Shown: piece after piece, positions 6,365 through 61,348 of the stretch
Numbering within the stretch: position 1 is the stretch's first letter
Layout: each line of letters begins with the position of its first letter
IMG/VR virus record: IMGVR_UViG_3300013212_000061
Span: 16,025 to 80,024 of that record
Reading direction: 5' to 3' (one strand)
Source: a virus
Taxonomy: Duplodnaviria > Caudoviricetes
Length of the DNA stretch: 64,000 nucleotides
Translations under genes and position numbers: made by a program
Notes under the pieces: model-generated
Databases searched by the model: none
What the model saw: the letters and a program-made list of their open reading frames with translations, nothing else
What the model was told of the DNA's origin: nothing

Positions 6365-7120
6365 ATGAAAATTAAAATTGACAAAGTAGACCAAAACAAT
6401 TTCATCGGTTTTGTGAATAGACTTAAGGTTATAGATACCTTTATCTACTTTAAAATCAAGGATGAAGTGGTACAGGCATCCGCCTATCTTCCACAAAGAG
6501 ATGCTGTTAAACATCACAGAATTCCAGTGTCGCAAGTATTCCAATTAGAAGACGGTGCTATTAACACATCAAAAGAATTAAAAATTGCCTTCTTTGATGC
6601 TGGTCGTTTAACTGACGCATTTAAACAATTTGAATTTGGAAACATCCAAGCTGAAATTGAATTCGTAGAAAATGACGAGGATTTCGTAGCAACTGAGTTC
6701 CGTATTTTCAACAATGAATTGGAAATTAAACTTGCATGTTCTGAGCCTTCATTAGGTTATAAAGACCTTACAGATGCTCAAATTGCAGGAATCTTTAATA
6801 TTGACGCAGCAAACTATGTATTTGACATGGATTATACTGCAACTTCAAAAGTTCGTTCTCTTTTTGGATTGGACAAAGAAGAAACTTTCACTATCTCAAC
6901 TAATGCAGAAGGTGTCCGAATGAAAGGTAAAACTTACAACTACCTTGTAACCGATTCATTCCAAGGAACCAATCCTGGAAATGTAACTCTTTTCAAAAAA
7001 TATTTAAACCTATTAGACAAAGAAGATTATTCAGCAAATGTTATGGATAACCGAGTAGTATTACGCTCAAAAGATTCAGAAACATTACTAACTATCGCTA
7101 CTTGCCAAACAGCTGAATAA
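6365..7120 (+). CDS. Probable sliding clamp (gp45-like)
   Basis: Size, beta-rich acidic composition and position just before the polymerase; no diagnostic motif. Confidence 0.45.
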   Translation: MKIKIDKVDQNNFIGFVNRLKVIDTFIYFKIKDEVVQASAYLPQRDAVKHHRIPVSQVFQLEDGAINTSKELKIAFFDAGRLTDAFKQFEFGNIQAEIEFVENDEDFVATEFRIFNNELEIKLACSEPSLGYKDLTDAQIAGIFNIDAANYVFDMDYTATSKVRSLFGLDKEETFTISTNAEGVRMKGKTYNYLVTDSFQGTNPGNVTLFKKYLNLLDKEDYSANVMDNRVVLRSKDSETLLTIATCQTAE

Positions 7121-7123
7121 TTT

Positions 7124-8320
7124 ATGACAATCGAAGAACTAATACTAAAACCAGAGAGTGATTTATCACAAGATGAAATTAAAACATTGGTTGAGCATTA
7201 TTCTATGTTGTCAGCAAAGTTTGGAGCCTATGAACAAGCAGTAAAAGTAATGCTTAACTCGATCTATGGCGCCTTCGGTAACAAATGGTTTCACTTTTTT
7301 AATATAGACATCGCAGAATCTATTACCCTACAGGGACAGTCTGCGATTCTATATTCTGAGAAGATACTAAATAAGTATTTTCAAGAGTTTTGGACTAAAG
7401 ACAAGGCAGTTCATGAGTTTTTTAACATTCAAGTTAAAAATAAACTTGTGCGACCTTCAGTAGTCTATATTGATACCGATTCTTGTTATGTACAGTTTGA
7501 AGAGATGTATGAATCTATTGAATGGCTTGGAGACAAGATATCGATTGACCAATTCATTATGAAATTGTATAACTTTAGACTTAAAGATTATATTTTTAAG
7601 TGTATGGAGAAATATGCAGAAGCCACTAATACTGAAAACTTCCTCCAGTTTGAATTGGAAACGATTGCCTACTCTGGAATTTGGTTAGCTAAGAAAAAAT
7701 ACCTGCAAAATATTGCTTGGGAAGATAAAATTGGAATTGAAGAACGTTACCCTTCACTTAAGAAGGTTAAAACTATTGGTTTTGATACAATTCAAAGTTC
7801 AACACCAGCTCTTGCAAGAAAGCAGTTGACCGATATTCTTAAATTGATTCTTTCAGAAAAACCTACAGCGTCCCTATTAAAAAGACTAGTAGATTATTTG
7901 AAACAATGTAAAAAAGAATTCCAATTAGCAAGTGTTGATGAGATATGTTTTAATAAAAGAACTAACAATATCGAAAAATATATTGTAGATGATACGGTAG
8001 AATTTCAATATGGTTTAAAATGTCCACCAAACGTTAAAGCTGCAGGATTTTATAATTTCTTAATGAATCAAAATCCAAAGTTCAAGAACAAGTATAAGAT
8101 GATTGGTAATGGTGAAAAGCTAAAACTATATCATTGTAAACATGGGACATGTGAAATATTTGCATACCAACCAGGAGCTCATCCTTATGAAATTGCCCCT
8201 CAAGTTGACTATGAAACACAATTCGAAAAGAGTGTTATAGATCCATTGAACCGGGTTCTTACCGCAGTTGGTTTACATACACTAAATAGAAACTTAATTT
8301 ATTCAACTTCATTATTTTAA
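7124..8320 (+). CDS. DNA polymerase family B, C-terminal half (gp43B-like)
   Basis: Motif B KVMLNSIYG, motif C YIDTDS, KKKY, C-terminal clamp-binding-like STSLF. Confidence 0.92.
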   Translation: MTIEELILKPESDLSQDEIKTLVEHYSMLSAKFGAYEQAVKVMLNSIYGAFGNKWFHFFNIDIAESITLQGQSAILYSEKILNKYFQEFWTKDKAVHEFFNIQVKNKLVRPSVVYIDTDSCYVQFEEMYESIEWLGDKISIDQFIMKLYNFRLKDYIFKCMEKYAEATNTENFLQFELETIAYSGIWLAKKKYLQNIAWEDKIGIEERYPSLKKVKTIGFDTIQSSTPALARKQLTDILKLILSEKPTASLLKRLVDYLKQCKKEFQLASVDEICFNKRTNNIEKYIVDDTVEFQYGLKCPPNVKAAGFYNFLMNQNPKFKNKYKMIGNGEKLKLYHCKHGTCEIFAYQPGAHPYEIAPQVDYETQFEKSVIDPLNRVLTAVGLHTLNRNLIYSTSLF

Positions 8321-9619: not shown

Positions 9620-9931
9620 ATGGAAGTGAATCTTAATCGACTAGATGAAGACAAACTACCCATTAAATATATTTTAGGCATCCATGAACAACTAGAAAGT
9701 TTTCCGGATGCCTTTGATATTATACATGTTTATGTTGTCGAAACTATGAAAAAACCAGACCGACCACGAATCAATTTTACAAAACACTCATTGATGACAT
9801 ATCATGCATGCGGTAATATTGAAAATGCGGAGAAAGGTTTAGAACAGGCAATTGGCCTAGGTTTAATTGAGCAAACCCATTTTGAAGATGGAAAAGAAAC
9901 ATACAAAATATTAATGAACCCGTTCCAATAA
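9620..9931 (+). CDS. Hypothetical protein
   Basis: ORF between uvsX and the helicase. Confidence 0.6.
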   Translation: MEVNLNRLDEDKLPIKYILGIHEQLESFPDAFDIIHVYVVETMKKPDRPRINFTKHSLMTYHACGNIENAEKGLEQAIGLGLIEQTHFEDGKETYKILMNPFQ

Positions 9932-9959
9932 GAAACTTTACCCCAAACAGGCTTATAAT
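9932..9959 (+). promoter_or_regulatory. Class II promoter GAAAC-N17-TATAAT
   Basis: Exact motif upstream of the helicase. Confidence 0.65.
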
Positions 9960-14523: not shown

Positions 14524-14535
14524 GATATATAATCC

Positions 14536-17031
14536 ATGGCAAGTTACAATCAAAAATTTAATTCCGATGATAGTGTAGTTAGACACATCATTATAGGTTT
14601 TTTAGCCGATTTGAATACCAAATTGTATTTTCATCGACAAATAACCAATGACGAAAGAGTAGTAGTGGATGTTCCATTTTATTACTCAATAACAGGGGAT
14701 GACCAATTCCTTAGAGACAATTTTCTATTTTCAACACCATCAGGACCAAATTGTACTCCAGATAAAGCGCATGCGGATGCAAACTATGATGTTGTACCAA
14801 GAGGAATTGTAAACTTTTCAGGACTTGCTATTGATTCTGGAAAATTAGTCAATAAAAGAACTACAGGTCAGTACACTAAAATGAACTCTGAAGGGATCAT
14901 TGAATCTTATGTTGCTGAATTTGACATGATTCCAATAACTATTAGTTTTGATGTTGAAATCCTAGTATCTTCAACACTTGATTCTTTTAAAATCACTGAG
15001 GCAATAATCAAAAGAATGTACAAATCCAACTATTTTAATGTTGAAGTTGGGCATTTAGAGGAGGGTAATTATAGAATCGCATCTTATTATGCACTACCTG
15101 ATGATTACACTCTTGAAAGACCTGTTGGATTTACATATGATGACAAAGACCGATTTAAAATAACTTTTCCTATTGAAGTTAATTCATTTATACCTTCATT
15201 TCATTTAGGTAATGAAGAAGGTTTTGGATCAAATCAACTTTCTACTGAGCGTTTTGCTGGAAACAGAATGTTTACTATAGATGCTATTATAAACTCTACT
15301 GATGTTAATCAAATTACTTCCGGACAATATTTCGGAGATATTGTAGAAGTTCCAGGAACATCGCAACCTGGCGGAAGTTCTCTATTTGGAACCCAAGGTC
15401 CTGTAGGACCTGCAGGGGATAGAGGACCTCAAGGACGTCAAGGAACGCAAGGAGCACAAGGTACTCAAGGTTACCAAGGTACCCAAGGAAACCAAGGAAC
15501 ACAAGGTTACCAAGGAGACCAAGGAACACAAGGTTACCAAGGAGACCAGGGAACTCAAGGTTACCAAGGAGACCAGGGAACTCAAGGTTACCAAGGAGAC
15601 CAGGGAACTCAAGGAACACAAGGTACTCAAGGAGACCAAGGAACACAAGGTTACCAAGGAGACCAGGGAACTCAAGGTTACCAGGGAGACCAAGGAACAC
15701 AAGGTTACCAAGGAGACCAGGGAACTCAAGGTTACCAGGGAGACCAGGGAACTCAAGGTACTCAAGGAGACCAAGGAACCCAGGGATTCCAAGGTGCTCA
15801 AGGATTCCAAGGTGCTCAAGGAGTTCAAGGTGCTCAAGGTGCTCAAGGAGTTCAAGGTGCTCAAGGAGTTCAAGGAGTTCAAGGTGCTCAAGGAGTTCAA
15901 GGTGCTCAAGGTGCTCAAGGAGTTCAAGGTGCCCAAGGAGTTCAAGGCTTACAGGGAATTCAAGGTGCCCAAGGATTTCAAGGTGCTCAAGGAGTTCAAG
16001 GCTTACAGGGAGTTCAAGGTGCTCAAGGACGCCAAGGTTCTCAAGGGTTTCAAGGACAAAAAGGTGAAACTGGATCTTTCGGTGGTGCAACATTTGAGTT
16101 CTATTATGATAATGACACAACAGATCCCGTAAATTTGACACCAGGGCATGTAAGAATTAATGAATTTGGTACGGAAATGTACATTTCATATTTAGACATT
16201 AACTCTATAAGTATTCAATCATTTTTACAAACAATTGATGATTCAACTTCTCAAATTAAAGGTTTATTTAAACTAACATCATATACTGACCCGTTACTTT
16301 ATGCAATATTTAATATAGTAGGTAGCCATACAGAGCATACAGACCATTTCAATGTTCCAGTTGCATTTATTTCCAGTCCTATTGCTGGAACTGTTCCTCC
16401 CGACCAATTAGCATATATTACTTTCCAAAGAACAGGAGACATTGGAGATAGAGGACCTCAAGGTTTTCAAGGTGCCCAAGGAACGCGAGGTTTTCAAGGA
16501 GCCCAAGGTTTTCAAGGAGTACAAGGAGCCCAAGGTTTTCAGGGAATACAAGGAGTACAGGGTGCCCAAGGAACTCAAGGTTTCCAGGGAATACAAGGAA
16601 CTCAAGGAACTCAAGGAGTACAAGGATTCCAAGGTGCTCAAGGAGTACAAGGATTCCAAGGACCTCAAGGTTTTCAAGGAGCCCAAGGTACTCAAGGAAC
16701 TGGAGCCCAAGGGTTTCAAGGTGTTCAAGGACCCCAAAGTTCAGGTGCAGGTGGAAGTATTAAATCAATAAATGTAATAAGTAGCAACACCACCGCCGGA
16801 AGCAATGCAAGTACTGAATATACATATCTTGCTTCAGGAACTATTGATATTACTCTTCCAACTGCCGTAGGAAATACAAATAACTATTACATTAAAAATA
16901 CCGGAACCGGCACAGTAACAATTAAAACAACTTCAACTGAAACAATAGATGGAAGTTTAACAGCCCCATTGCGGGTTCAATACACAGCATTAACATTAGT
17001 AAGCGATGGTACAAACTGGTTTATAATATAA
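14536..17031 (+). CDS. gp15-like tail terminator domain fused to collagen-like fibre domains
   Basis: N-terminal ~230 aa resemble T4 gp15 (VPFYY, VPRG, PITISFDVEI); two (Gly-X-Gln)n tracts; fibre-type C-terminus; late promoter at 14524. Confidence 0.65.
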   Translation: MASYNQKFNSDDSVVRHIIIGFLADLNTKLYFHRQITNDERVVVDVPFYYSITGDDQFLRDNFLFSTPSGPNCTPDKAHADANYDVVPRGIVNFSGLAIDSGKLVNKRTTGQYTKMNSEGIIESYVAEFDMIPITISFDVEILVSSTLDSFKITEAIIKRMYKSNYFNVEVGHLEEGNYRIASYYALPDDYTLERPVGFTYDDKDRFKITFPIEVNSFIPSFHLGNEEGFGSNQLSTERFAGNRMFTIDAIINSTDVNQITSGQYFGDIVEVPGTSQPGGSSLFGTQGPVGPAGDRGPQGRQGTQGAQGTQGYQGTQGNQGTQGYQGDQGTQGYQGDQGTQGYQGDQGTQGYQGDQGTQGTQGTQGDQGTQGYQGDQGTQGYQGDQGTQGYQGDQGTQGYQGDQGTQGTQGDQGTQGFQGAQGFQGAQGVQGAQGAQGVQGAQGVQGVQGAQGVQGAQGAQGVQGAQGVQGLQGIQGAQGFQGAQGVQGLQGVQGAQGRQGSQGFQGQKGETGSFGGATFEFYYDNDTTDPVNLTPGHVRINEFGTEMYISYLDINSISIQSFLQTIDDSTSQIKGLFKLTSYTDPLLYAIFNIVGSHTEHTDHFNVPVAFISSPIAGTVPPDQLAYITFQRTGDIGDRGPQGFQGAQGTRGFQGAQGFQGVQGAQGFQGIQGVQGAQGTQGFQGIQGTQGTQGVQGFQGAQGVQGFQGPQGFQGAQGTQGTGAQGFQGVQGPQSSGAGGSIKSINVISSNTTAGSNASTEYTYLASGTIDITLPTAVGNTNNYYIKNTGTGTVTIKTTSTETIDGSLTAPLRVQYTALTLVSDGTNWFII
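15388..16070 (+). repeat. Collagen-coding 9-bp tandem repeats (GGN NNN CAA), tract 1
   Basis: GTQGYQGDQ and GAQGVQ units. Confidence 0.95.
16444..16737 (+). repeat. Collagen-coding repeats, tract 2
   Basis: GFQGAQGVQ units. Confidence 0.9.
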
Positions 17032-37993: not shown

Positions 37994-39829
37994 ATGTCAA
38001 ATGAAAACTATATAGGTGATAATAAATGGATCCCTAGTGGAGATTCAGAAAAGGATGCACAAAAACTAGTATGGTCAACTAAGATTATTAATGACTTAAT
38101 GGTTGCCTTGGATAAAGGTTATAGACCCCAAGTCAGTATGCCTTTCTACGAAGGAAAACAATTCTTACGTAGAGGTAATATTGTATTTGAGTATACTGAA
38201 GCAGAACTTAAAGAAATTACAAAGTGCGCAAATGATATTGTTTACTTTGCAGAGAAATATGCAGTTGTAATGACTGATAATGGTATTCAACAAGTAAAAC
38301 TTAGAGAATACCAAAAAGACCTATTAAGGGACTTTCAACACAACCGATTTAATATTGTCCTAGCATCCAGACAGATGGGTAAAACTGTAACTGCCAGTAT
38401 TTTTAATGCATGGTACCTTACATTTAACTATGACAAAACAACCTTACTACTTGCAAATAAATCTGAATCAACAAAAGAGATTATTGACAAGGCTAAAGTT
38501 GTAATTGAGAACCTTCCATTCTTTATGAAGCCGGGAATTATCAAATATGATGTAATGAACGTAAGGGCTGATAATGGTTGTAGACTTGTTGGTCAGTCAA
38601 CTACAGCTAAGTCAGGTATTGGTTTTACTATTCACAATTTATATCTTGATGAGTTTGCTCACGTTCATCCAACGATTGTAAACTCATTCTATGAAAACGT
38701 TTACCCTACACTTTCTGCCTCAAAGATTTCTAGAATCAATATTACCAGTACACCAAATGGATTTAATAAGTTCTATGAAATTTATTCCGATGCTGAAAAA
38801 GGTAATAATGAGTACAAAGCAACCCGAATAGATTGGTGGCAACATCCTGATAGGGACGATGCTTGGTATAAAAGAGAACTTGGAAACTTAGGTTCTGAGG
38901 ATGCTTTTAATAGACAATATGGTAATGAGTTTACCAGCTCATCTAGTTTATTGCTAAGTCCTGGTACGATGAAAAATATCAGAAAGAATGCTAAGAAATT
39001 TGTTTGGCATGATATTGAAGAGTTTGAAAATGCCCATATTGATACTCAAGGATTCCTTTCATTTAACCCTGGCTTTGATATTGAAGAGGCCGCAAACGAA
39101 GAAAAATATTACCTATTTACAGTTGATATTGCAGAAGGGAATGGAGGAGACTATTCGGTTATAAATATGTTTGAAGTTGAACCACTTCCGGATAAAGACA
39201 TAGAAAATTATATTAATCCAGGAGCGATGTATGATTTTTTTAGAATTAATCAAGTTGGAATATTCCGAAGCAATGAGCATCCAATCGAAGACTTTGCAAA
39301 AATCTTATACATATTGGCCCTTGATGTATTTAATGCTGAAAATGTTAAATTGATTATTGAATATAATACTTATGGAAGTATCTTATTACAGTACCTTTCA
39401 ACAGTTTTCCCAGGGAGAAATGAATTTGAAGATGAATTGGTCCTAAGATTTAAACATCGACATGATGCAAAAGCACCAAAACCTGGAATTAGATTAAAGT
39501 CTGATAATAAATCAGTTTTCTGTCAAAACTTTAAAAAGTTTATAGAAATTAATCGCGTTAAGATAAATGATATACAAACAGTCCAAGAGGCCAGTCTTTT
39601 TGGAATCGTTAAAAATGGAAGCTATGGAGCCCAGATGGGAAATGATGATTCAATCATGACATGCATTACAGCAACTGAATTTTTTACAACGGTAGATTAT
39701 GCAGATTATGTTGAAGAGCTATTGGATATTATAGAACCTGAAAAGCACTCACTTATGGAAAAAATATTATATAAAAATAATGATTTTCAAGGAGATTTAC
39801 AATTTGATATTTATTCATTACTAGACTAA
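37994..39829 (+). CDS. Terminase large subunit (gp17-like)
   Basis: LREYQ, SRQMGKT, YLDEFAH, STPNG, VDIAEG.GGDYS, NDD. Confidence 0.95.
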   Translation: MSNENYIGDNKWIPSGDSEKDAQKLVWSTKIINDLMVALDKGYRPQVSMPFYEGKQFLRRGNIVFEYTEAELKEITKCANDIVYFAEKYAVVMTDNGIQQVKLREYQKDLLRDFQHNRFNIVLASRQMGKTVTASIFNAWYLTFNYDKTTLLLANKSESTKEIIDKAKVVIENLPFFMKPGIIKYDVMNVRADNGCRLVGQSTTAKSGIGFTIHNLYLDEFAHVHPTIVNSFYENVYPTLSASKISRINITSTPNGFNKFYEIYSDAEKGNNEYKATRIDWWQHPDRDDAWYKRELGNLGSEDAFNRQYGNEFTSSSSLLLSPGTMKNIRKNAKKFVWHDIEEFENAHIDTQGFLSFNPGFDIEEAANEEKYYLFTVDIAEGNGGDYSVINMFEVEPLPDKDIENYINPGAMYDFFRINQVGIFRSNEHPIEDFAKILYILALDVFNAENVKLIIEYNTYGSILLQYLSTVFPGRNEFEDELVLRFKHRHDAKAPKPGIRLKSDNKSVFCQNFKKFIEINRVKINDIQTVQEASLFGIVKNGSYGAQMGNDDSIMTCITATEFFTTVDYADYVEELLDIIEPEKHSLMEKILYKNNDFQGDLQFDIYSLLD

Positions 39830-40586
39830 TAAAGGTCTCTGATACTACGTTATATTTGGTCGTTCTTTGTTTCATAAGTATACCTCCAGAGACCTTTTTA
39901 ATTTCAATAAGGAAATAAAGATATATAGAATAACGACTAAATATAATTATTAACTTATGATAAAATATCACTATGTGTATAGAATAACTAACACAAAACT
40001 CAACAAACACTATTATGGTTCAAGAACATCTCAAATAGAACCTGCAAAAGATTTGGGACATAAGTACTTTTCAAGTTCTTTTGATAAAGAATTTATCAAA
40101 GACCAAAAGAACAATCCACAGGATTATAAATACGTGATAGTTTCTAAATTTAATTCACGAAAAGAGGCTCTAGAATTAGAAGTTAAACTACACACAAAAT
40201 TTAACGTAGGAGTTAACAATAATTTTTATAATAAAGCTAGAGCAACTTCTTCAAAATTCACAATGGAAGGAACCAAAATATCGGAAGAAACTAGACTAAA
40301 GCATATTGGCGAAAATAATGGAATGTATGCTAAAAATCATACAATTGAATCTAGAATTAAAATGAGTCAATCTAGTAAAAATCCATCCGAAGCTACTCGA
40401 AAAAAAATGTCTGAAAATCATGCGGACGTTTCAGGAGATAAAAATCCAATGTATAATAAAAATCATACAATTGAATCTAGAATTAAAATGTCAAAGCCAA
40501 AGACCGAAGAACATCGTCGCAAAATGTCCGAAGCGGCAAAAAGAAGATACTCTAAATAAAAAGACATATACGATTTATTGGTATAA
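39800..40586 (+). mobile_element. Endonuclease cassette inserted into the terminase 3' end
   Basis: Terminase ends DIYSLLD*; an orphan DIYDLLV* lies at 40563-40586; left boundary approximate. Confidence 0.65.
39957..40559 (+). CDS. GIY-YIG homing endonuclease with NUMOD3 repeats
   Basis: YVYRITN..YYG.R..Y..SS, E, YN; two N.MY.KNHT.ESR.KMS repeats. Confidence 0.85.
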   Translation: MIKYHYVYRITNTKLNKHYYGSRTSQIEPAKDLGHKYFSSSFDKEFIKDQKNNPQDYKYVIVSKFNSRKEALELEVKLHTKFNVGVNNNFYNKARATSSKFTMEGTKISEETRLKHIGENNGMYAKNHTIESRIKMSQSSKNPSEATRKKMSENHADVSGDKNPMYNKNHTIESRIKMSKPKTEEHRRKMSEAAKRRYSK

Positions 40587-56194: not shown

Positions 56195-57319
56195 ATGGAA
56201 AACAATAACTCAGTTTGCTACATAGCAAAGATTAACGAAGTAAGAGCAATCGAAGGAGCAGATAACATCGAATTAGTTATCGCAGGTGGATGGAATGCCA
56301 TCACAAAGAAAGGTGAATTTAGAGAAGGTTCCCTAACAGTAATTGCAACAACAGATGCGGTAATACCTGAAGCCCTTTCTGAAAAAATGGGAGTTGCAAA
56401 CTACCTAAGAAAAGGTACAAGAGTCCGAACTGTAAAATTACGTGGAGTCTATTCAGAATGTTTAATCATTCCAGTTACATACATTAGAGCAAAATCTATC
56501 GTAGAAGGAAAAGATTTAATGGAAGAGTTAGGTATCACTAAATACGAGCCACCAGTTAAACAAATCCAATTAGCGTCTGGTAGAAAAATCAAATGGAGAG
56601 ATAACCAAAACTTCCATATCTACTACAAATTTCCAAACTTGAAAAATGTGGCTGGATTATTTACTGAAGAGGATGAGGTTCAAATCACCAGAAAAATCCA
56701 CGGTACTAATGCACGTTATGGTATTGTAAGGAAATCTAAATTGACCTTTTGGGACAGAGTAAGAAAATTCTTAAGAATTGCTGACGAATGGGTTAACTAT
56801 GAGTACATCTACGGTTCTCATAATTGTGAGAAGGGTTCAGATACTCAAGGATTCTATTCAACTGACGTTTGGAGAACTATCGCGGAGGAATATGGTATTA
56901 AAAAAAGACTTTGGAACCAGGCCAAAAAATACAGCCCTGAAGATTTGGGTTCTGGATTGGTTCTTTACGGAGAGATTTACGGAGCTGGAATTCAAAAGAA
57001 CTACGAATATGGTTTAACCGACATTAAGTTTGTTGGATTCGATATTACTGTAGATGGAAAATATCTAACACCAGAAACTACTCACTTAGTTACTTCTTGT
57101 GACTTAGAACTTACTCACGTTGAAGTACTTTACAATGGACCATGGTCTCAAGAGGTACAAGACCGTTATGTATTTAATAACTTCATTGAGGGTACTAAAG
57201 TTCCGCATGAAGGAATTGTAATCAAGCACGTCTCTGGTGAAAGAAATAAAGTTGCGAAAGTAATTAACCCAGACTACTTGATTTATGGTGAAAAGAATAA
57301 CGTAGGAGATTCTCATTAA
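56195..57319 (+). CDS. RNA ligase, DRB0094 family
   Basis: N-terminal IEGAD.IEL OB domain, KLRGVYSE, KIHGTN, YGEIYG, FDI, EGIV, K.INPDYL. Confidence 0.88.
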   Translation: MENNNSVCYIAKINEVRAIEGADNIELVIAGGWNAITKKGEFREGSLTVIATTDAVIPEALSEKMGVANYLRKGTRVRTVKLRGVYSECLIIPVTYIRAKSIVEGKDLMEELGITKYEPPVKQIQLASGRKIKWRDNQNFHIYYKFPNLKNVAGLFTEEDEVQITRKIHGTNARYGIVRKSKLTFWDRVRKFLRIADEWVNYEYIYGSHNCEKGSDTQGFYSTDVWRTIAEEYGIKKRLWNQAKKYSPEDLGSGLVLYGEIYGAGIQKNYEYGLTDIKFVGFDITVDGKYLTPETTHLVTSCDLELTHVEVLYNGPWSQEVQDRYVFNNFIEGTKVPHEGIVIKHVSGERNKVAKVINPDYLIYGEKNNVGDSH

Positions 57320-57320
57320 T

Positions 57321-57776
57321 ATGGCATTAGACTACAAAAGAGTACTCTTAGGAATGCTAGGAGAAAAGATAGTTGCAAAACACTTTAGGGATTCCGGACA
57401 TCAGGTCGAGGAATCCCTAAATGTTTTTGATTCGGATAAAGATATGATAATTGATGGGAATAATGTTGAAGTAAAAACAAATGCACCCTTAATTTATTAC
57501 GATTCGTTTTCATTTGCAAAGGGTCAATACAATAAGATTATGAATTCTCATCGAGTTTATTGGGTTTCTGTTCCATTACAAACTCAAGAGGACCAGTTCG
57601 CTGGATGTGTTTTTGAAATGGACCCTAAGGTTGCAAAACTACATACGATTAAATTTAATTCAGGAACAACTGCAATAGGACTTCGGAGACAACAGGAGGG
57701 AATGAAGGTTATCCATAAGATTGAAGACCCTGCCCTACTAAAACAACTTAAAGAATTATCGTCTTCGTATTTATAG
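57321..57776 (+). CDS. PD-(D/E)XK-like hypothetical nuclease
   Basis: LGEKIV, DM....VEVK. Confidence 0.45.
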   Translation: MALDYKRVLLGMLGEKIVAKHFRDSGHQVEESLNVFDSDKDMIIDGNNVEVKTNAPLIYYDSFSFAKGQYNKIMNSHRVYWVSVPLQTQEDQFAGCVFEMDPKVAKLHTIKFNSGTTAIGLRRQQEGMKVIHKIEDPALLKQLKELSSSYL

Positions 57777-57805
57777 ATATATAATACATAAAAATATATA
57801 TAGGT

Positions 57806-58258
57806 ATGAAACATATTAAACTATTTGAAGAATTTACCGCAAATCAAATTAAATGTGATAAATGCGGTTGGAAATGGAGACTTGAAGACGGAGGTAACGA
57901 CGTTTTTTTATGCAAATGCGGACATGATAACACTCCAGAATTTGTACAAGAGGCAGAGAAAAAAGAGATGGACAAAGGTCCACTAGATAACGCCGGAATT
58001 AATAAGGCGCTTGATAAAAAAGCAAAAGCATCTGGAGTTCCAATAGGAATTATTAGAGCAGTGATGCGAAGAGGAATGGGAGCTTGGAACAGCAGTCACA
58101 GGGCTGGAGTTCCACAAGAGGCTTGGGGATATGCCCGGGTTGGAGCTTTTTTAGAAAAAGGTGAAGGAACATGGCAAAAAGCAGATGCTGATTTGGCAAA
58201 AGAAGTTCGAGATGGAGGACATGACAAAAAACTACCATGGAAACCTAAAGAAGACTAA
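57806..58258 (+). CDS. Tagged protein with Zn ribbon and DUF5824-like domain
   Basis: MKHIKLFEEF; CDKC..CKC; RRGMGAW..SHR.G...AWGYARV.AF. Confidence 0.65.
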   Translation: MKHIKLFEEFTANQIKCDKCGWKWRLEDGGNDVFLCKCGHDNTPEFVQEAEKKEMDKGPLDNAGINKALDKKAKASGVPIGIIRAVMRRGMGAWNSSHRAGVPQEAWGYARVGAFLEKGEGTWQKADADLAKEVRDGGHDKKLPWKPKED

Positions 58259-58381
58259 AGCAATATAGAGACTTACTTAATGTTTCATAAGATTTGTCGT
58301 TACTTCTTTAAAATAAAGGTAAGTCTCTTATTTTTATTTAGATATATAATATAACGACAAATCTAAATAAATTTTAATCTT

Positions 58382-58909
58382 ATGAAACACAAGCACCACA
58401 TCATACCAAAGCATATGGGAGGTACTAATGACCCTGAAAATATTATTGAATTAACTATTGAAGAGCACGCCAAAGCGCATCAATTACTATGGGAAGAACA
58501 TGGTAAGAGAGAAGATTGGCTAGCATATCACGGATTATCTAAGTTAATTGGTAAAGAAGAACTTTTAAAAGAAGTACTTTCAATGGCCGGAAAAAAAGGA
58601 GGAAGCAATGGTAAAGGAGTTACTGGCAATAGAAAAAACGGAGCAATCGCAAATTGGGAAAAAAATAAAGATTTAATTCTTAAAACACTTTATGAAAATG
58701 GTAAAATGTATGGACATTTAGGTGGAGCGCCTAAAGACAAATGGATATGGATAAATAATAATAAAGAAGCTAAAAAAGTGTTAAAATCTGATGCAATACC
58801 ATTTGGCTGGAAAAGAGGAAGACTACCATTATCCAATGAAACCAAAGAAAAATTAAAAGAAAGTTGTAAAGGTATTAATACAGGTACTAAAAGAACTAAT
58901 AAAGATTAA
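58382..58909 (+). CDS. HNH homing endonuclease (Mob-like)
   Basis: HKHHIIPKHMGG..D..N.I.LT.EEH..AH.LL; C-terminal WINN..GWKRGR. Confidence 0.85.
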   Translation: MKHKHHIIPKHMGGTNDPENIIELTIEEHAKAHQLLWEEHGKREDWLAYHGLSKLIGKEELLKEVLSMAGKKGGSNGKGVTGNRKNGAIANWEKNKDLILKTLYENGKMYGHLGGAPKDKWIWINNNKEAKKVLKSDAIPFGWKRGRLPLSNETKEKLKESCKGINTGTKRTNKD

Positions 58910-58910
58910 C

Positions 58911-59294
58911 ATGAAACATATAAAACTTTTTGAGGAATTCTTGAACGAAGCTGAAGAGACCTATAATGACTATCCAGCAGCCGCAAAGGAGAATGCAAAG
59001 AAGGCACTGGATTGGAGAGACCAATACGGTCGAGATATTGTAACTGCAGGTACTCCAGTTGGATGGCAGCGGGCTAATCAATTGGCAAAAGGTGAAAAAC
59101 TTTCTGCTGATGTTGTTTCCCGAATGGCACAATTTAATCGACACCGAAAAAACTCAAAGATATCTCCAGAACACAAATCAGAACCATGGAAAGACAATGG
59201 ATATTTAAGTTTTTTGTTATGGGGCGGTAAAGAAGGCGTTGATTGGGCTATAGAAAAAATGAAGGAAATACGAAAAAAAGAAGGTGATAGATAG
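58911..59294 (+). CDS. Tagged hypothetical protein
   Basis: MKHIKLFEEFLNE; YNDYP, GTPVGWQRANQLA, LLWGG. Confidence 0.65.
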   Translation: MKHIKLFEEFLNEAEETYNDYPAAAKENAKKALDWRDQYGRDIVTAGTPVGWQRANQLAKGEKLSADVVSRMAQFNRHRKNSKISPEHKSEPWKDNGYLSFLLWGGKEGVDWAIEKMKEIRKKEGDR

Positions 59295-59334
59295 ATTTTG
59301 AATATATTACTTGGATTCTTTAGATATATACTAT

Positions 59335-60189
59335 ATGGCAAAATGTAAAATATGTAAAGAAGAAGACCAAAGTAAATCAAAGTCTTTTAGATGTGAAAAA
59401 TGTACTGAAGCATCTTTAAAATGTGAAGGTTGTGGAAACAAGAAATCGAAATCAACTTATCGTTTTTGTAGAAATTGTATAGGATCTGATTTAACATATA
59501 GGAATAATTTAAGTGCATCTTTGAAAGGAAAGACTTCTTGGGCTAAAGGATTAACTAAAGAAACAAATAATTCTATTAAAAGAAGTTCTGAATCTAAAAA
59601 AGGTGTATTATTATCAGATTCTCATAAAGCAAAAATATCTAGTAGTATGACTGGAAAACATGCAGGTGCTAAAAATCCTTTTTATGGAAAAACACACACT
59701 GATGAATTAAAAGTCAAATGGTCTGCTGAAAGATCCGGAAAATCAATTCATACCGACGAGACAAAAGAAAGAATGAGAAATAAAATGCTAGAAAGATATG
59801 AAAATGGTGAAATTCAAAAATCACCAAAATCTAACTGGTATGAATTTCAAGGACTTAAGTGTCAAGGAAGAACTGAATTAAAATGGGTAGAAAGAAACTT
59901 TGATAGAATAATTAATAGTCGAATTTACATAAGTACACCACATGGAACCTATATTGGAGATTTTGAAACTAATGATTCATTAATAGAAGTTAAATCATTT
60001 TACACATTTAGCGTAATTAGTCAAAATCAACTTGATAAAATAATGTGGATAGACAAAAATATTAAAAAGATTATTTTTGCAGTTAAAAAAGATAATAAAT
60101 TCTATGAATTTAGTTATAACAACGAAGGAGTTGATTGGGCTATGAAAAAAATGGACGAAATAAAAAAAGAAAATAATGAAAAAATTTAA
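59335..60189 (+). CDS. Putative homing endonuclease: Zn finger + NUMOD3 + PD-(D/E)XK domain
   Basis: Four CxxC pairs, NPFYGKTHT, YIGDF...IEVKS; ATG at 59335 after GATATATA. Confidence 0.7.
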   Translation: MAKCKICKEEDQSKSKSFRCEKCTEASLKCEGCGNKKSKSTYRFCRNCIGSDLTYRNNLSASLKGKTSWAKGLTKETNNSIKRSSESKKGVLLSDSHKAKISSSMTGKHAGAKNPFYGKTHTDELKVKWSAERSGKSIHTDETKERMRNKMLERYENGEIQKSPKSNWYEFQGLKCQGRTELKWVERNFDRIINSRIYISTPHGTYIGDFETNDSLIEVKSFYTFSVISQNQLDKIMWIDKNIKKIIFAVKKDNKFYEFSYNNEGVDWAMKKMDEIKKENNEKI

Positions 60190-60622
60190 ACTATTTGAAG
60201 AATTTAAAAATTCTACAGCTTGTCCAGTTCCAACTAGAGACCTTGAAGTTAATACTAAAAACAGAGACCGTGCAATTAAGGCAGATCACATTGAATATGG
60301 TCCCTTAAATGTTGATGAACCTGCTGGATTTTGGGAACATATTGCAGACCACTGGAATACCAGTGTAGAAGCTGCAAAGAAATCATTATGTGCAAACTGT
60401 GCTGCATTTGATGTTTCACCAAGAATGAAAGAATGTATGCCCGGAGAATTAAGCGACCCGGACGGTGAATTAGGATATTGTTGGATGCACCAGTTTAAAT
60501 GTCATTCTGCAAGAACATGTTATACATGGGCAAAAGGTGGACCAATATCAACTGACAAAATCTCATATGATTGGCAAGATAAAAATCAAGATGCCGCGAT
60601 GAATAAAAATCCTATAAAATAA
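60176..60622 (+). CDS. Tagged Cys-rich protein
   Basis: MKKFKLFEEF; CANC..C..GYC..KC...TC..W. Confidence 0.65.
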   Translation: MKKFKLFEEFKNSTACPVPTRDLEVNTKNRDRAIKADHIEYGPLNVDEPAGFWEHIADHWNTSVEAAKKSLCANCAAFDVSPRMKECMPGELSDPDGELGYCWMHQFKCHSARTCYTWAKGGPISTDKISYDWQDKNQDAAMNKNPIK

Positions 60623-60623
60623 T

Positions 60624-61166
60624 ATGAAAAGAATTAAATTATTTGAAGAGTTCTTGAATGAAAAGGAGAATGTAACGCATGATTTTAATTGTGCAATGTT
60701 ATACTTTGACTTTCCAGCAATGGCAACCTTACATCAATCAATAAGACCTGAAGATATTTTCACAGTAGAAGCTGATGAAAGTTACGGTCTTGAAGACGAA
60801 CCACACTGTACCCTCCTATACGGACTTCATCCAGAAGTAACCGTTGATCAGGTTGCAGATAAACTAAAAGGGATCCAATTTGGAGAATGTAAAGCCTACA
60901 ACCTTTCTCTTTTTGAAAATGATAAATATGATGTCTTGAAATTTGACATGGAAGGTGATAATCTTCATAATGCAAATAAGGCACTTAGCGAACTTCCATA
61001 TACTACGGACTATCCGGATTATATGCCCCACATGACTGTTGCGTATTTAAAACCTGGCAAAGGTTCTGAGTATTTGAAAATATTAAATTCGCAAGAGCAT
61101 TCACTAAAACCACTGCATATTACTTACAGTATGACAGATGGCTCTAAACAAAAAATAGATTTATAA
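60624..61166 (+). CDS. 2H phosphoesterase resembling T4 gp57B/Acb1 anti-CBASS nuclease, tagged
   Basis: Two HxT motifs (PHCTLLYG and DYPDYMPHMTVAY); starts MKRIKLFEEFLNE. Confidence 0.75.
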   Translation: MKRIKLFEEFLNEKENVTHDFNCAMLYFDFPAMATLHQSIRPEDIFTVEADESYGLEDEPHCTLLYGLHPEVTVDQVADKLKGIQFGECKAYNLSLFENDKYDVLKFDMEGDNLHNANKALSELPYTTDYPDYMPHMTVAYLKPGKGSEYLKILNSQEHSLKPLHITYSMTDGSKQKIDL

Positions 61167-61168
61167 TT

Positions 61169-61348
61169 ATGAAACAAGAATCGTTAGACAAAACATTAGG
61201 ACTTGTTAGACACATTTTAACATTCGTAGGTGGTTACTTAGTAACTTCAGGAGTACTAACAGAAGTAACGCTTAGCACTGGAATTGGTGCAATTGTAACA
61301 CTTATTGGAGTGGTATGGTCAGTTATTGATAAAAATAAAGCAGCATAA
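61169..61348 (+). CDS. 59-aa two-TM holin-like protein
   Basis: LGLVRHILTFVGG...GVVWSVIDK; absent from the ORF track. Confidence 0.55.
   Translation: MKQESLDKTLGLVRHILTFVGGYLVTSGVLTEVTLSTGIGAIVTLIGVVWSVIDKNKAA

What the first reader, a model, noticed from the sequence alone, without database searches (positions are those of the whole stretch)
58267..58389. Hairpin-enclosed antisense copy of the HNH gene's own leader and start codon
Seen: the inverted repeat AGAGACTTAC (58267-76)/GTAAGTCTCT (58319-28) encloses TGTTTCATAAGATT, a perfect complement of 58376-89 spanning the ATG. It also encloses AGATTTGTCGTTA, a perfect complement of 58352-64. The two halves overlap at AGATT, so the loop is a joined antisense copy of the 5' UTR. 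The late promoter GATATATAA (58341) lies between the antisense and its target. Known: T4 I-TevI is silenced on read-through transcripts by an RBS-sequestering hairpin. Inference: a more elaborate bipartite switch, or a terminated small antisense RNA acting like an antitoxin.
Basis: partly seen in the sequence, partly recalled or inferred. Interest (0 to 1): 0.82.

Follow-up and report, generated by a model that had tools for sequence, protein, structure and literature searches.

The report
Anti-leader hairpin guarding homing endonuclease genes
A selfish DNA-cutting-enzyme gene in a large uncultured phage sits behind a stop-signal hairpin that carries a mirror copy of the gene's own start region; this is an elaborated form of a trick known from phage T4 and most likely lets the enzyme be made only from its own late promoter.

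Summary
Segment 58281-58302 is perfectly complementary to leader box 58352-64 and start-codon box 58381-89 (or 58376-89) of the HNH gene. It lies inside a hairpin (58267-76/58319-28) followed by a T-run, and the motif GATATATAA (58341) lies between the two arms.

- The motif occurs 13 times on the + strand and 0 times on the - strand of the 80-kb record. It precedes head, tail-tube and tail-fibre genes.
- Among 13 promoter-proximal genes, only three homing-endonuclease genes pair with their upstream region (-19 to -24 kcal/mol, 0 of 300 shuffles).
- The same cassette heads 17 of 17 pattern matches in other uncultured phage contigs. All are endonuclease-type genes.
- Covariation is strong (C-G, A-U and U-A at one pair), outer stems are wholly replaced, and cognate arms fit better than non-cognate ones.
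- Wobble pairs and fold energies place the hairpin on the gene's strand.

Best reading: a T4 I-TevI-type mask. Read-through RNA is terminated or folds over the start region, and RNA from the cassette's own late promoter lacks the antisense arm. The new features are the arm housed in a terminator-like hairpin, genes without Shine-Dalgarno sites, and portability between HNH and GIY-YIG-like genes.

A discrete antisense RNA is not supported at this locus. This scan noted related cassettes on other DNA before. No RNA data exist.

The parts
57776..57784 (+). GATATATAA promoter motif of the upstream gene. It is the source of transcripts that run into the cassette.
57806..58258 (+). Upstream gene (DUF5824 domain, N-terminus MKHIKLFEEF).
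58262..58332 (+). Terminator-like long hairpin. The outer stem is 58267-76/58319-28 and the weakly paired apical part holds the antisense arm.
   Evidence: -18.0 kcal/mol, z -3.29. The stem is replaced by other sequence in L083 but still folds (-21.1). Across the cassette family, the hairpin folds better on the + strand in 13 of 14 distinct cassettes (-18.0 vs -15.5 for this one).
58281..58289 (+). Anti-start arm TGTTTCATA. It pairs with 58381-89; by sliding it can extend to 58294 and pair with 58376-89.
   Evidence: The A to G change in L002 gives G-U opposite the U of AUG.
58290..58302 (+). Anti-leader arm AGATTTGTCGTTA. It pairs with 58352-64.
   Evidence: Compensatory C-G to A-U change in L083. 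Covariation across 17 cassettes.
58329..58339 (+). T-rich tract after the hairpin (TATTTTTATTT).
58341..58349 (+). GATATATAA motif: the cassette's own promoter, of the type found before structural genes.
   Evidence: 13 on +, 0 on -..
58352..58364 (+). Leader box TAACGACAAATCT, target of the anti-leader arm.
58365..58380 (+). A/T-rich stretch bulged out of the bipartite helix. It contains the second AATCT.
58381..58389 (+). Start-codon box TATGAAACA (ATG 58382-84), target of the anti-start arm.
58382..58909 (+). HNH homing-endonuclease gene, 175 aa, N-terminus MKHKHHIIPKHMGG.
   Evidence: Pfam HNH 19.6 bits, below cut-off; 22.3 bits, above cut-off; PHROG homing endonuclease 7.7e-14.
39831..39897 (+). 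Second cassette: terminator-like hairpin AAAGGTCTCTG/CAGAGACCTTT with a 45-nt loop.
39850..39864 (+). Second cassette: anti-leader arm. It pairs with 39932-46 (15 bp, one G-U).
39872..39879 (+). Second cassette: anti-start arm TCATAAGT. It pairs with 39953-60 and lies 3' of the anti-leader arm, a crossing order.
   Evidence: The same order, with covariation, occurs in L274a, L276 and L278.
39920..39928 (+). Second cassette: GATATATAG promoter motif.
39957..40559 (+). GIY-YIG-like / NUMOD3 endonuclease gene (MIKYHYVYRITN...).
   Evidence: (GIY-YIG 16 bits, below cut-off), (NUMOD3 42.6 bits).

Best explanation
This is a self-contained, insulated expression cassette that travels with free-standing homing-endonuclease genes. 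It is a variant of the T4 late-promoter-bypass translational mask.

Proposed mechanism:
1. Transcripts coming from upstream meet a long hairpin followed by a U-run, which acts as an intrinsic terminator (inferred).
2. Any RNA that reads through carries, in the apical part of that hairpin, a 22-nt segment. This segment refolds with the downstream leader box and the start codon into a bipartite helix of about 22 bp. That occludes the A/U-rich, Shine-Dalgarno-less initiation region, so the nuclease is not translated. The pairing and its conservation are shown; the effect on translation is inferred.
3. The GATATATAA promoter lies between the two arms. Its transcripts lack the antisense arm, have an almost unstructured leader, and are translated. 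They also restore transcription of the gene downstream of the insertion (inferred).

Net effect: the nuclease is made only from its own late promoter, whatever the element has landed behind.
For: Anatomy:
- Perfect 13-nt and 14-nt complements, with the promoter motif between them.
- The long-range helix is in the MFE and the centroid structure.
- RNA starting after the motif is unstructured: -1.8 kcal/mol.

Promoter:
- GATATATAA occurs 13 times on + and 0 times on -, 3-45 nt before ATGs and often just after GC-rich terminators.
- It precedes the tail fibre, head protease, major head and tail tube genes.

Specificity:
- Of 13 promoter-proximal genes tested, the three endonuclease genes give -23.0, -19.3 and -23.6 kcal/mol, with 0 of 300 shuffles as stable.
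- The other ten give -2.9 to -10.1 kcal/mol.

Conservation and covariation:
- L083 has C to A in the arm and G to T in the leader, and an outer stem of wholly different sequence that still folds.
- L002 has G-U opposite the U of AUG.
- Across 17 cassettes, the pair at the variable core position is CG 8, AU 6, UA 2.
- The covariation score is 0.244, against 0.091 +/- 0.019 in shuffles (0 of 500 reach it) and 0.047-0.086 for slid partners.
- Cognate arm-leader duplexes average -22.5 kcal/mol, against -12.9 +/- 3.6 for non-cognate pairs.

Association:
- All 17 matches of the promoter-plus-leader pattern in viral contigs are followed by endonuclease-type ORFs.
- All 17 aligned cassettes (the 14 distinct pattern matches in other contigs, L083 and the three in this genome) have an outer stem of 9-16 bp, a 28-47-nt loop and a T-rich tail.

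Strand:
- The hairpin is more stable on + in 13 of 14 distinct cassettes, p 0.0014.
- Outer stems hold 4 G-U and 0 A-C.

Mobility:
- Metagenome contigs of relatives join 58238 to 58930 or 58944. Hairpin, promoter and gene are therefore absent together.

Precedent:
- PMC2988022 section 12 and PMC3014915 section 29 (passages read).
Against: - There are no RNA data. The transcription start, termination at the hairpin and translational repression are all unverified.
- The sequencing runs found held at most 0.18 of the sampled words and were available as contigs only.
- The upstream gene has the same class of promoter (57776). The T4 logic of silent early, active late is therefore not evident here, and it is unclear what read-through is being guarded against.
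- In five relatives the cassette follows a tRNA gene, and in four of them a canonical terminator lies between the two. Read-through may be rare there, which makes a purely cis lock look redundant.
- The hairpin is not a canonical terminator. Its loop is 38-47 nt and the simple terminator scan does not call it.
- Partition-function accessibility of the AUG falls from 0.63 to 0.01 for the HNH gene. Several control genes fall too, for example 0.39 to 0.00, so that measure does not discriminate.
- The whole-region fold of the second cassette is not unusual: z -1.01.
- In three relatives (L272, L273, L283) the pairing stops at -3 and leaves the AUG free.
- In the second cassette type the two arms are in crossing order.
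- The long-range duplex itself is strand-neutral: 7 of 14.
Confidence: 0.62

Rival explanations
1. The hairpin works as a trans-acting antisense brake. It ends the upstream mRNA, or is a discrete small RNA where a promoter abuts it. It then persists as a stable 3' fragment whose apical region pairs in trans with the nuclease mRNA made from the cassette's own promoter. This damps translation or triggers cleavage. Each endonuclease gene would have its private antisense. This can coexist with the cis lock.
For: - The antisense arm sits in the weakly paired apical part of a stable hairpin followed by a T-run, the usual build of antisense RNAs.
- Arms are cognate-specific.
- Five relatives have the cassette behind a tRNA gene, four of them with a canonical terminator in between. 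A cis read-through lock seems to have little to do there.
- L275/L284 have an exact GATATATAA 4 nt before the hairpin, and L276/L278 have AATATATAA there.
- Earlier notes of this scan on other genomes proposed antisense RNAs for related cassettes (unchecked).
Against: - None of the three cassettes of this genome has a GATATATA motif before the hairpin.
- A hairpin on the same strand as the gene needs no separate promoter to act in cis.
- There is no motif on the - strand anywhere in the genome.
- No RNA evidence exists.
Confidence: 0.22
2. The long helix is an RNase III-type processing site. Its role would be to cut read-through RNA between the upstream gene and the nuclease gene, inactivating or separating the nuclease message, rather than simply to mask the start codon.
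For: The helix is about 22 bp of nearly perfect duplex with an internal bulge. That it is long enough for RNase III is recalled from general knowledge and was not tested. PMC2988022 section 11 (passage read) reports RNase E processing of the segB, segG and mobE transcripts in T-even phages.
Against: Nothing in the sequence distinguishes this from simple masking. No cleavage data exist. The host and its RNases are unknown.
Confidence: 0.1
3. The feature acts at the DNA level. The inverted repeats flanking the promoter would be a protein operator, as with the I-TevI autorepressor site, or a cruciform or recombination scar. The RNA pairing would then be incidental.
For: I-TevI binds an operator that overlaps its late promoter (PMC2988022, passage read). 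Watson-Crick covariation preserves a DNA inverted repeat equally well.
Against: - Non-Watson-Crick positions are G-U on the + strand, never A-C: 4 against 0 in outer stems. G-U also occurs in the long-range arms of L002 and of the second and third cassettes.
- The T-run lies on one side only.
- The arms are 49 nt apart and bipartite.
- The arm sequences differ between cassettes, so no common protein site is conserved beyond the core.
Confidence: 0.04
4. Chance complementarity in AT-rich intergenic DNA.
For: The genome has 33.8% G+C. Predicted pairing of AUGs is common in control genes too.
Against: 0 of 300 shuffles reach the observed duplex. The HNH start ranks 1 of 93 genes. The pairing covaries and recurs in 17 cassettes.
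Confidence: 0.01

Closest known systems
Late-promoter-bypass, RBS-sequestering hairpins of T-even and Aeh1 homing-endonuclease genes: I-TevI, I-TevII, I-TevIII, segB, mobE (PMC2988022, section 12; passages read)
   Same: - An upstream arm pairs with the initiation region of an endonuclease gene.
- A late promoter lies so that its transcripts lack that arm.
- The gene is co-oriented with upstream transcription.
- The function is to restrain a selfish nuclease.
   Different: - The 5' arm here is housed in the apical part of a separate terminator-like hairpin with a U-run.
- The helix is bipartite (leader box plus start codon) with a 16-nt bulge, and in one subtype the arms are in crossing order.
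- There is no Shine-Dalgarno sequence to sequester: 4 of 93 genes have one.
- The promoter motif is GATATATAA, not TATAAATA.
- The same cassette is shared by HNH and GIY-YIG-like genes in uncultured phages. The major head protein of this one is nearest to an uncultured 462-kb phage and the Lak megaphages.
T4 genes e, soc and 49: inhibitory structures on early read-through transcripts that are relieved on late transcripts (PMC3014915, section 29; passages read)
   Same: The logic of two transcript classes with different 5' ends and different start-site accessibility.
   Different: Those are ordinary phage genes with compact hairpins. Here the element is portable and tied to mobile nuclease genes.
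IS10/Tn10 fold-back inhibition of externally initiated transcripts, and RNA-OUT/RNA-IN antisense control
   Same: A mobile element shields its own gene from transcription coming in from outside by pairing over the start region. The antisense is specific to each element.
   Different: The element type and host are different. RNA-OUT is made from the opposite strand, whereas here the evidence places the structured RNA on the gene's strand.
Intrinsic (rho-independent) terminators
   Same: A stem followed by a T-run. Several 5' arms begin with AAA, as in bidirectional terminators. The + strand is preferred.
   Different: The loop is 28-47 nt against the usual 3-8, and the stem is only moderately G+C-rich. 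The element is not called by the consensus scan. The genome's ordinary terminators are compact and GC-rich.

Membership tests
T4-type late-promoter-bypass translational mask of homing endonuclease genes | An upstream RNA segment complementary to the translation initiation region of the endonuclease gene | tested here: met
   A 22-nt arm at 58281-58302 pairs with 58352-64 and 58381-89. The duplex is -23.6 kcal/mol with 0 of 300 shuffles as stable.
T4-type late-promoter-bypass translational mask of homing endonuclease genes | A dedicated late promoter between the arms, so that its transcripts lack the 5' arm | tested here: inconclusive
   The motif GATATATAA lies at 58341-49 between the arms. 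It occurs 13 times on + and 0 times on -, and precedes structural genes. The transcription start site is not mapped.
T4-type late-promoter-bypass translational mask of homing endonuclease genes | The helix is maintained by selection (covariation among homologues) | tested here: met
   compensatory C-G to A-U and to U-A changes; covariation score 0.244 against 0.091 in shuffles (0 of 500 reach it).
T4-type late-promoter-bypass translational mask of homing endonuclease genes | Sequestration of a Shine-Dalgarno sequence | tested here: not met
   The leader has no Shine-Dalgarno motif, and only 4 of 93 genes of the record have one. The start codon and the A-rich leader are the paired parts.
T4-type late-promoter-bypass translational mask of homing endonuclease genes | Translation repressed on long transcripts and allowed on late transcripts | not testable with these tools
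   This needs reporters or ribosome binding assays. Predicted accessibility falls from 0.63 to 0.01, but controls fall too.
Intrinsic terminator | A stable stem directly followed by a U-run on the transcribed strand | tested here: met
   The stems are 9-16 bp. The 12 nt after the stem hold 4-9 T. The + strand is more stable in 13 of 14 distinct cassettes.
Intrinsic terminator | A compact G+C-rich hairpin with a small loop | tested here: not met
   The loop is 38-47 nt in the window's cassettes. The element is not called by the scan.
Cis-encoded antisense small RNA (IS10 RNA-OUT type, or a type I antitoxin) | Its own promoter giving a discrete RNA complementary to the target's start region | tested here: not met
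   No GATATATA motif lies before the hairpin in any of the three cassettes of this genome, and none lies on the - strand. Some relatives have one: L275/L284 and L276/L278.
HNH homing endonuclease (the gene controlled) | HNH catalytic motif, and presence or absence polymorphism between related genomes | tested here: met
   Pfam HNH 22.3 bits, above the cut-off. PHROG homing endonuclease 7.7e-14. Contigs of relatives lack 58239-58929/58943. Cleavage activity was not tested.

The most novel reading that the evidence does not exclude
Each endonuclease gene carries a private antisense RNA. The terminator-like hairpin would be released as a stable RNA of about 75 nt, either as the 3' end of the upstream message or from an abutting promoter as in L275 and L276. 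Its apical 22 nt would pair in trans with the nuclease's own late mRNA and set a threshold on nuclease synthesis. That would be a same-strand, terminator-embedded, cognate antisense system that moves with the selfish gene and works on top of the cis lock.
Probability: 0.2. Interest if true: 0.72.

Novelty: new variant of a known kind. Interest (0 to 1): 0.5.

Why it matters
Free-standing homing endonucleases must be expressed without harming the genome they invade. How they achieve this has been worked out experimentally only for a few T-even phage genes.

Here the same logic appears as a compact, portable module with four parts: a stop signal, an anti-leader arm, a late promoter and a leader. 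The module is shared by HNH and GIY-YIG-like genes. It occurs in a lineage of uncultured phages whose major head protein is nearest to an uncultured 462-kb phage and the Lak megaphages, and whose genes lack Shine-Dalgarno sites.

This suggests two things:
- Insulation from host-phage transcription is a general requirement for these elements.
- Start-site masking also works where initiation depends on an unstructured A-rich leader.

The cassette is a ready-made, covariation-supported RNA family. It can be used to annotate endonuclease insertions and late promoters in metagenomic phage genomes. Its two-arm design is simple enough to test with reporters.

Tried and rejected
- **Cultured relatives.** A megablast of 57300-60700 against GenBank phages found nothing. 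A protein search with the HNH found only distant cyanophage and Klebsiella phage homologues. No cultured relative of the cassette was found.
- **Narrow DNA pattern.** The first pattern found only the two contigs already in hand.
- **More orthologues.** The search for homologous proteins listed closer HNH relatives, P0001 at 93% and P0004 at 75%.
- **The third cassette's gene.** It has no close orthologue in viral contigs; the best is 59%.
- **Sequencing runs.** No run held more than 0.18 of the sampled words, and all were kept as contigs. Read laying could therefore show presence or absence variants but no transcript ends. Cover over 58338-58838 was very thin in all four runs, including the one RNA run, and I draw nothing from that.
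- **Rfam.** No family matched 57700-58600 at E up to 1.
- **Literature.** A search for the promoter motif returned only unrelated papers. A second search on endonuclease translational control added nothing beyond the Edgell review. The primary mobE paper, PMC1913452, is not held, so the mobE details rest on the review.
- **Partition-function accessibility.** It does not separate the endonuclease genes from controls. I do not use it as support.
- **Survey of a distant GIY-YIG family.** z <= -3 occurred in 8 of 35 starts against 0 of 35 internal decoys. The medians did not differ (Mann-Whitney p 0.10). 45 of the 80 loci were skipped because they had no ATG at the expected place, too little flank, or were duplicates.
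- **Survey of the HNH family.** z <= -3 occurred in 13 of 108 distinct upstream regions against 1 of 108 decoys. Start-site masking is therefore enriched but far from universal.
- **Antisense RNA from the opposite strand.** Earlier notes of this scan proposed this for other cassettes. I considered it and rejected it for this cassette, because of the + strand preference of the hairpin and the absence of - strand motifs.
- **Covariance model.** None was built.
- **Supplementary files.** None were consulted.

Full report
**What is there**

The window is part of an 80,024-bp virus record with 33.8% G+C. All genes lie on the + strand. CheckV rates the record 28% complete. Its major head protein is T4-like. 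The nearest records are an uncultured 462-kb phage (52% identity) and the Prevotella Lak megaphages (34-38%). Only 4 of 93 gene starts have a Shine-Dalgarno-like motif, and the leaders are A-rich.

- The upstream DUF5824 gene stops at 58256-58.
- A hairpin follows, with outer stem 58267-76/58319-28, and then TATTTTTATTT.
- The motif GATATATAA lies at 58341-49.
- A 32-nt leader follows, and then ATG 58382 of a 175-aa HNH endonuclease gene.

Inside the hairpin, 58281-58302 is complementary to 58352-64 (13 nt, perfect) and to 58376-89 (14 nt, perfect, across the ATG). The two targets share AATCT, so the junction can slide.

**Is it more than chance?**

- The fold of 58255-58420 has the long-range helix in both the MFE and the centroid structure: -30.5 kcal/mol, z -3.66, 0 of 200 shuffles.
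- RNA starting after the motif is essentially unstructured: -1.8 kcal/mol.
- I scored every one of 93 gene starts for pairing between -20..+12 and the 140 nt upstream. The HNH gene ranks first: z -5.56.
- The runner-up, gene 7125, is a different kind of thing that lies inside the upstream ORF.

**The motif is a promoter of the structural-gene class**

GATATATAA occurs 13 times on + and never on -. The shorter GATATATA occurs 16 times on + and 0 times on -. It sits 3-45 nt before ATGs, often directly after compact GC-rich terminators. It precedes the tail-fibre, head-protease, major-head and tail-tube genes. The transcription start is not mapped. The upstream DUF5824 gene has the same motif at 57776.

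**The design is specific to the endonuclease genes**

The record has four endonuclease-like genes:
- a GIY-YIG-like/NUMOD3 gene at genome position 9947, which is before the window;
- a second one at window 39957;
- the HNH gene at 58382;
- a NUMOD3 gene at 59335.

Three of the four carry the same architecture. The fourth has the motif only 3 nt before its ATG.

I took leader plus start as target and the 100 nt before the motif as partner. The three cassette genes give -23.0, -19.3 and -23.6 kcal/mol (z -6.4, -4.5, -6.2; 0 of 300 shuffles each). The ten other promoter-proximal genes give -2.9 to -10.1 kcal/mol. Two further motifs were skipped because the next ORF is more than 60 nt away.

**Relatives and covariation**

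- Close HNH orthologues L001 (90% aa) and L002 (88%) keep the cassette. In L002 an A to G change in the arm leaves G-U opposite the U of AUG.
- L083 (79%) has C to A in the arm and G to T in the leader, a compensatory change. Its outer stem has entirely different sequence but still folds, at -21.1 kcal/mol.
- A degenerate promoter-plus-leader pattern found 17 matches in 16 stretches of viral contigs, 14 of them distinct.
- Every match is followed by an ORF starting MYIY... (12), MKNYKYYYVYRITN (3) or MKHKHH (2). These are GIY-YIG-like/NUMOD3 or HNH genes. Some are cut by the locus end and one is disrupted.
- All 17 aligned cassettes have an outer stem of 9-16 bp of varied sequence, a loop of 28-47 nt, a T-rich tail, and the promoter 5-23 nt further on.
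- The anti-leader core TTTGTNGTTA/TAACNACAAA has the N pair as CG 8, AU 6, UA 2. Flanking pairs vary likewise.
- The covariation score is 0.244, against 0.091 +/- 0.019 in shuffles (0 of 500 reach it) and 0.047-0.086 for slid partners. 79.9% of cells are paired although two rows are misaligned.
- Each arm fits its own leader: mean -22.5 kcal/mol, against -12.9 +/- 3.6 for non-cognate pairs. For 13 of 17 leaders no foreign arm does as well.

How far the start codon itself is covered varies:
- It is fully paired in the HNH type, the third cassette and L271.
- Pairing reaches only -3 in L272, L273 and L283.
- The MKNY/MIKY type has an extra arm 3' of the anti-leader arm, in crossing order. That arm covaries: TCATG/CATGA against TTATG/CATAA.

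**Which strand?**

Earlier notes of this scan on other genomes favoured an RNA from the opposite strand. For this cassette the hairpin folds better on the + strand in 13 of 14 distinct cases (mean 3.8 kcal/mol, p 0.0014). The long-range duplex is strand-neutral, 7 of 14. In an unbiased count the outer stems hold 4 G-U and 0 A-C. No promoter motif lies on the - strand.

**Mobility**

Metagenome contigs of relatives in two runs join 58238 to 58944 or 58930, with 20 or 6 other letters between. Hairpin, promoter and HNH gene are therefore absent together. The same contigs lack the NUMOD3 gene, joining 59204 to 60124 or 60122.

With the insertion present, the next gene (58911) has no motif of its own. 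It would depend on the cassette's promoter.

**Wider family**

Among 108 distinct upstream regions of MKHKHH-type HNH genes, 13 show strong pairing of the start region (z <= -3), against 1 of 108 internal decoys. These include classic T4-style hairpins with the Shine-Dalgarno sequence in the 3' arm and TATAAATA in the loop, as in L006.

**Mechanism and comparison**

The best reading is the T4 paradigm described for I-TevI, I-TevII, I-TevIII, segB and Aeh1 mobE, and for T4 genes e, soc and 49 (PMC2988022 section 12 and PMC3014915 section 29; passages read). Long transcripts fold over the start site. Transcripts from a late promoter placed between the arms do not.

What is added here:
- the 5' arm lives in the top of a terminator-like hairpin, giving two locks in one element;
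- the helix is bipartite or tripartite;
- the target is an initiation region without a Shine-Dalgarno sequence;
- the module is portable between nuclease families.

What is shown is the anatomy, the conservation, the covariation, the strand preference of the hairpin and the association with endonuclease genes. What is inferred is termination, the transcription start and the effect on translation.

**Points against a purely cis role**

- The upstream promoter is of the same class.
- In five relatives the cassette sits behind a tRNA gene, and in four of them a canonical terminator lies between the two.
- A few relatives have a promoter-like motif abutting the hairpin.

These points keep a trans-acting role for the hairpin RNA alive, at about 0.2. 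Rfam holds no matching family.

**Verdict**

This is a new variant of a known kind of control. Interest is moderate.

Noticed in passing
genome positions 9836-9952 (window -6189 to -6073, before the window start); locus L180:1390-1506: A third copy of the cassette, in front of a GIY-YIG-like/NUMOD3 gene (MYIYKITN...). The outer stem is AAAGGTCCCTT/AAGGGACCTTT. The loop holds TACATAGATAT (anti-start) and TTTATTTAGTTTGGTC (anti-leader). GATATATAG lies at genome position 9910. The duplex is -23.0 kcal/mol with 0 of 300 shuffles as stable.
   Followed up: yes
window 7024-7035 and 7113-7124: A perfect 12-nt inverted repeat, AGATTATTCAGC/GCTGAATAATTT. It lies inside the end of one ORF and runs up to the ATG (7125) of the next. 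It is the second strongest start-site pairing in the record (z -4.8), and no promoter motif lies between the arms. It may be a translational-coupling structure.
   Followed up: partly
window 57300-61200: This is a hypervariable island. Contigs of relatives join 57322 to 60176, 57775 to 60624 and 60168 to 60624, and one goes back from 60662 to 57984. Genes that share the N-terminus MKHIKLFEEF seem to be shuffled at their conserved 5' ends and promoters.
   Followed up: no
window 59323-59337; also 14524-14538 and L003:2985-3003: The promoter motif lies only 3 nt before the ATG of the NUMOD3 endonuclease gene (59335), of the tail-fibre gene (14536), and of the HNH gene in L003/L004. This suggests leaderless or near-leaderless late mRNAs. 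None of these has an anti-leader hairpin.
   Followed up: partly
window 58382-58414: The public gene call for the HNH protein (P0002, 164 aa) starts at the internal Met12. All homologues start MKHKHH, and the first histidines belong to the HNH motif, so 58382 is the likelier start.
   Followed up: partly
L275:9320-9343 (- strand); L276:1300-1320; L278:1265-1285: In these relatives a promoter-like motif directly abuts the 5' side of the cassette hairpin and overlaps the stop of the upstream gene. It is GATATATAA in L275/L284 and AATATATAA in L276/L278. It could give a discrete RNA of about 75 nt ending at the T-run.
   Followed up: partly
L271:3216-3445, L272:3596-3830, L280:3439-3674, L273:878-1130, L283:6567-6767: In five relatives the cassette and its GIY-YIG-like gene sit directly behind a tRNA gene: tRNA-Ala in four and tRNA-Thr in one. 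This recalls T4 segB in the tRNA cluster. In four of them a compact terminator lies between the tRNA and the cassette hairpin.
   Followed up: partly
L117:267-428, L134:116-277, L162:1351-1512, L061:2252-2413: A different conserved leader design in more distant MKHKHH HNH genes. TTGTTTCAT ... TATTTAT ... GTCGAATCT, a 16-nt loop, then AGATTCGAC ATAAATA ... ATGAAACA. The inner stem shows compensatory changes (GAATCT/AGATTC against GATCCT/AGGATC). A conserved ATTTATACTAC lies in the 5' arm.
   Followed up: no
window 58333-58343 and 58361-58371: A further perfect 11-nt inverted repeat, TTTATTTAGAT/ATCTAAATAAA. It links the T-run and promoter edge with the bulged part of the leader. It is an alternative pairing on read-through RNA, is not chosen in the MFE structure, and is invariant in the four orthologues.
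   Followed up: no
window 40563-40586 and 39800-39829: The GIY-YIG-like gene at 39957 follows directly on the ORF that ends at 39829. L166, a 47% relative, has the promoter motif straight after the corresponding gene end and no hairpin. I did not test that.
   Followed up: no
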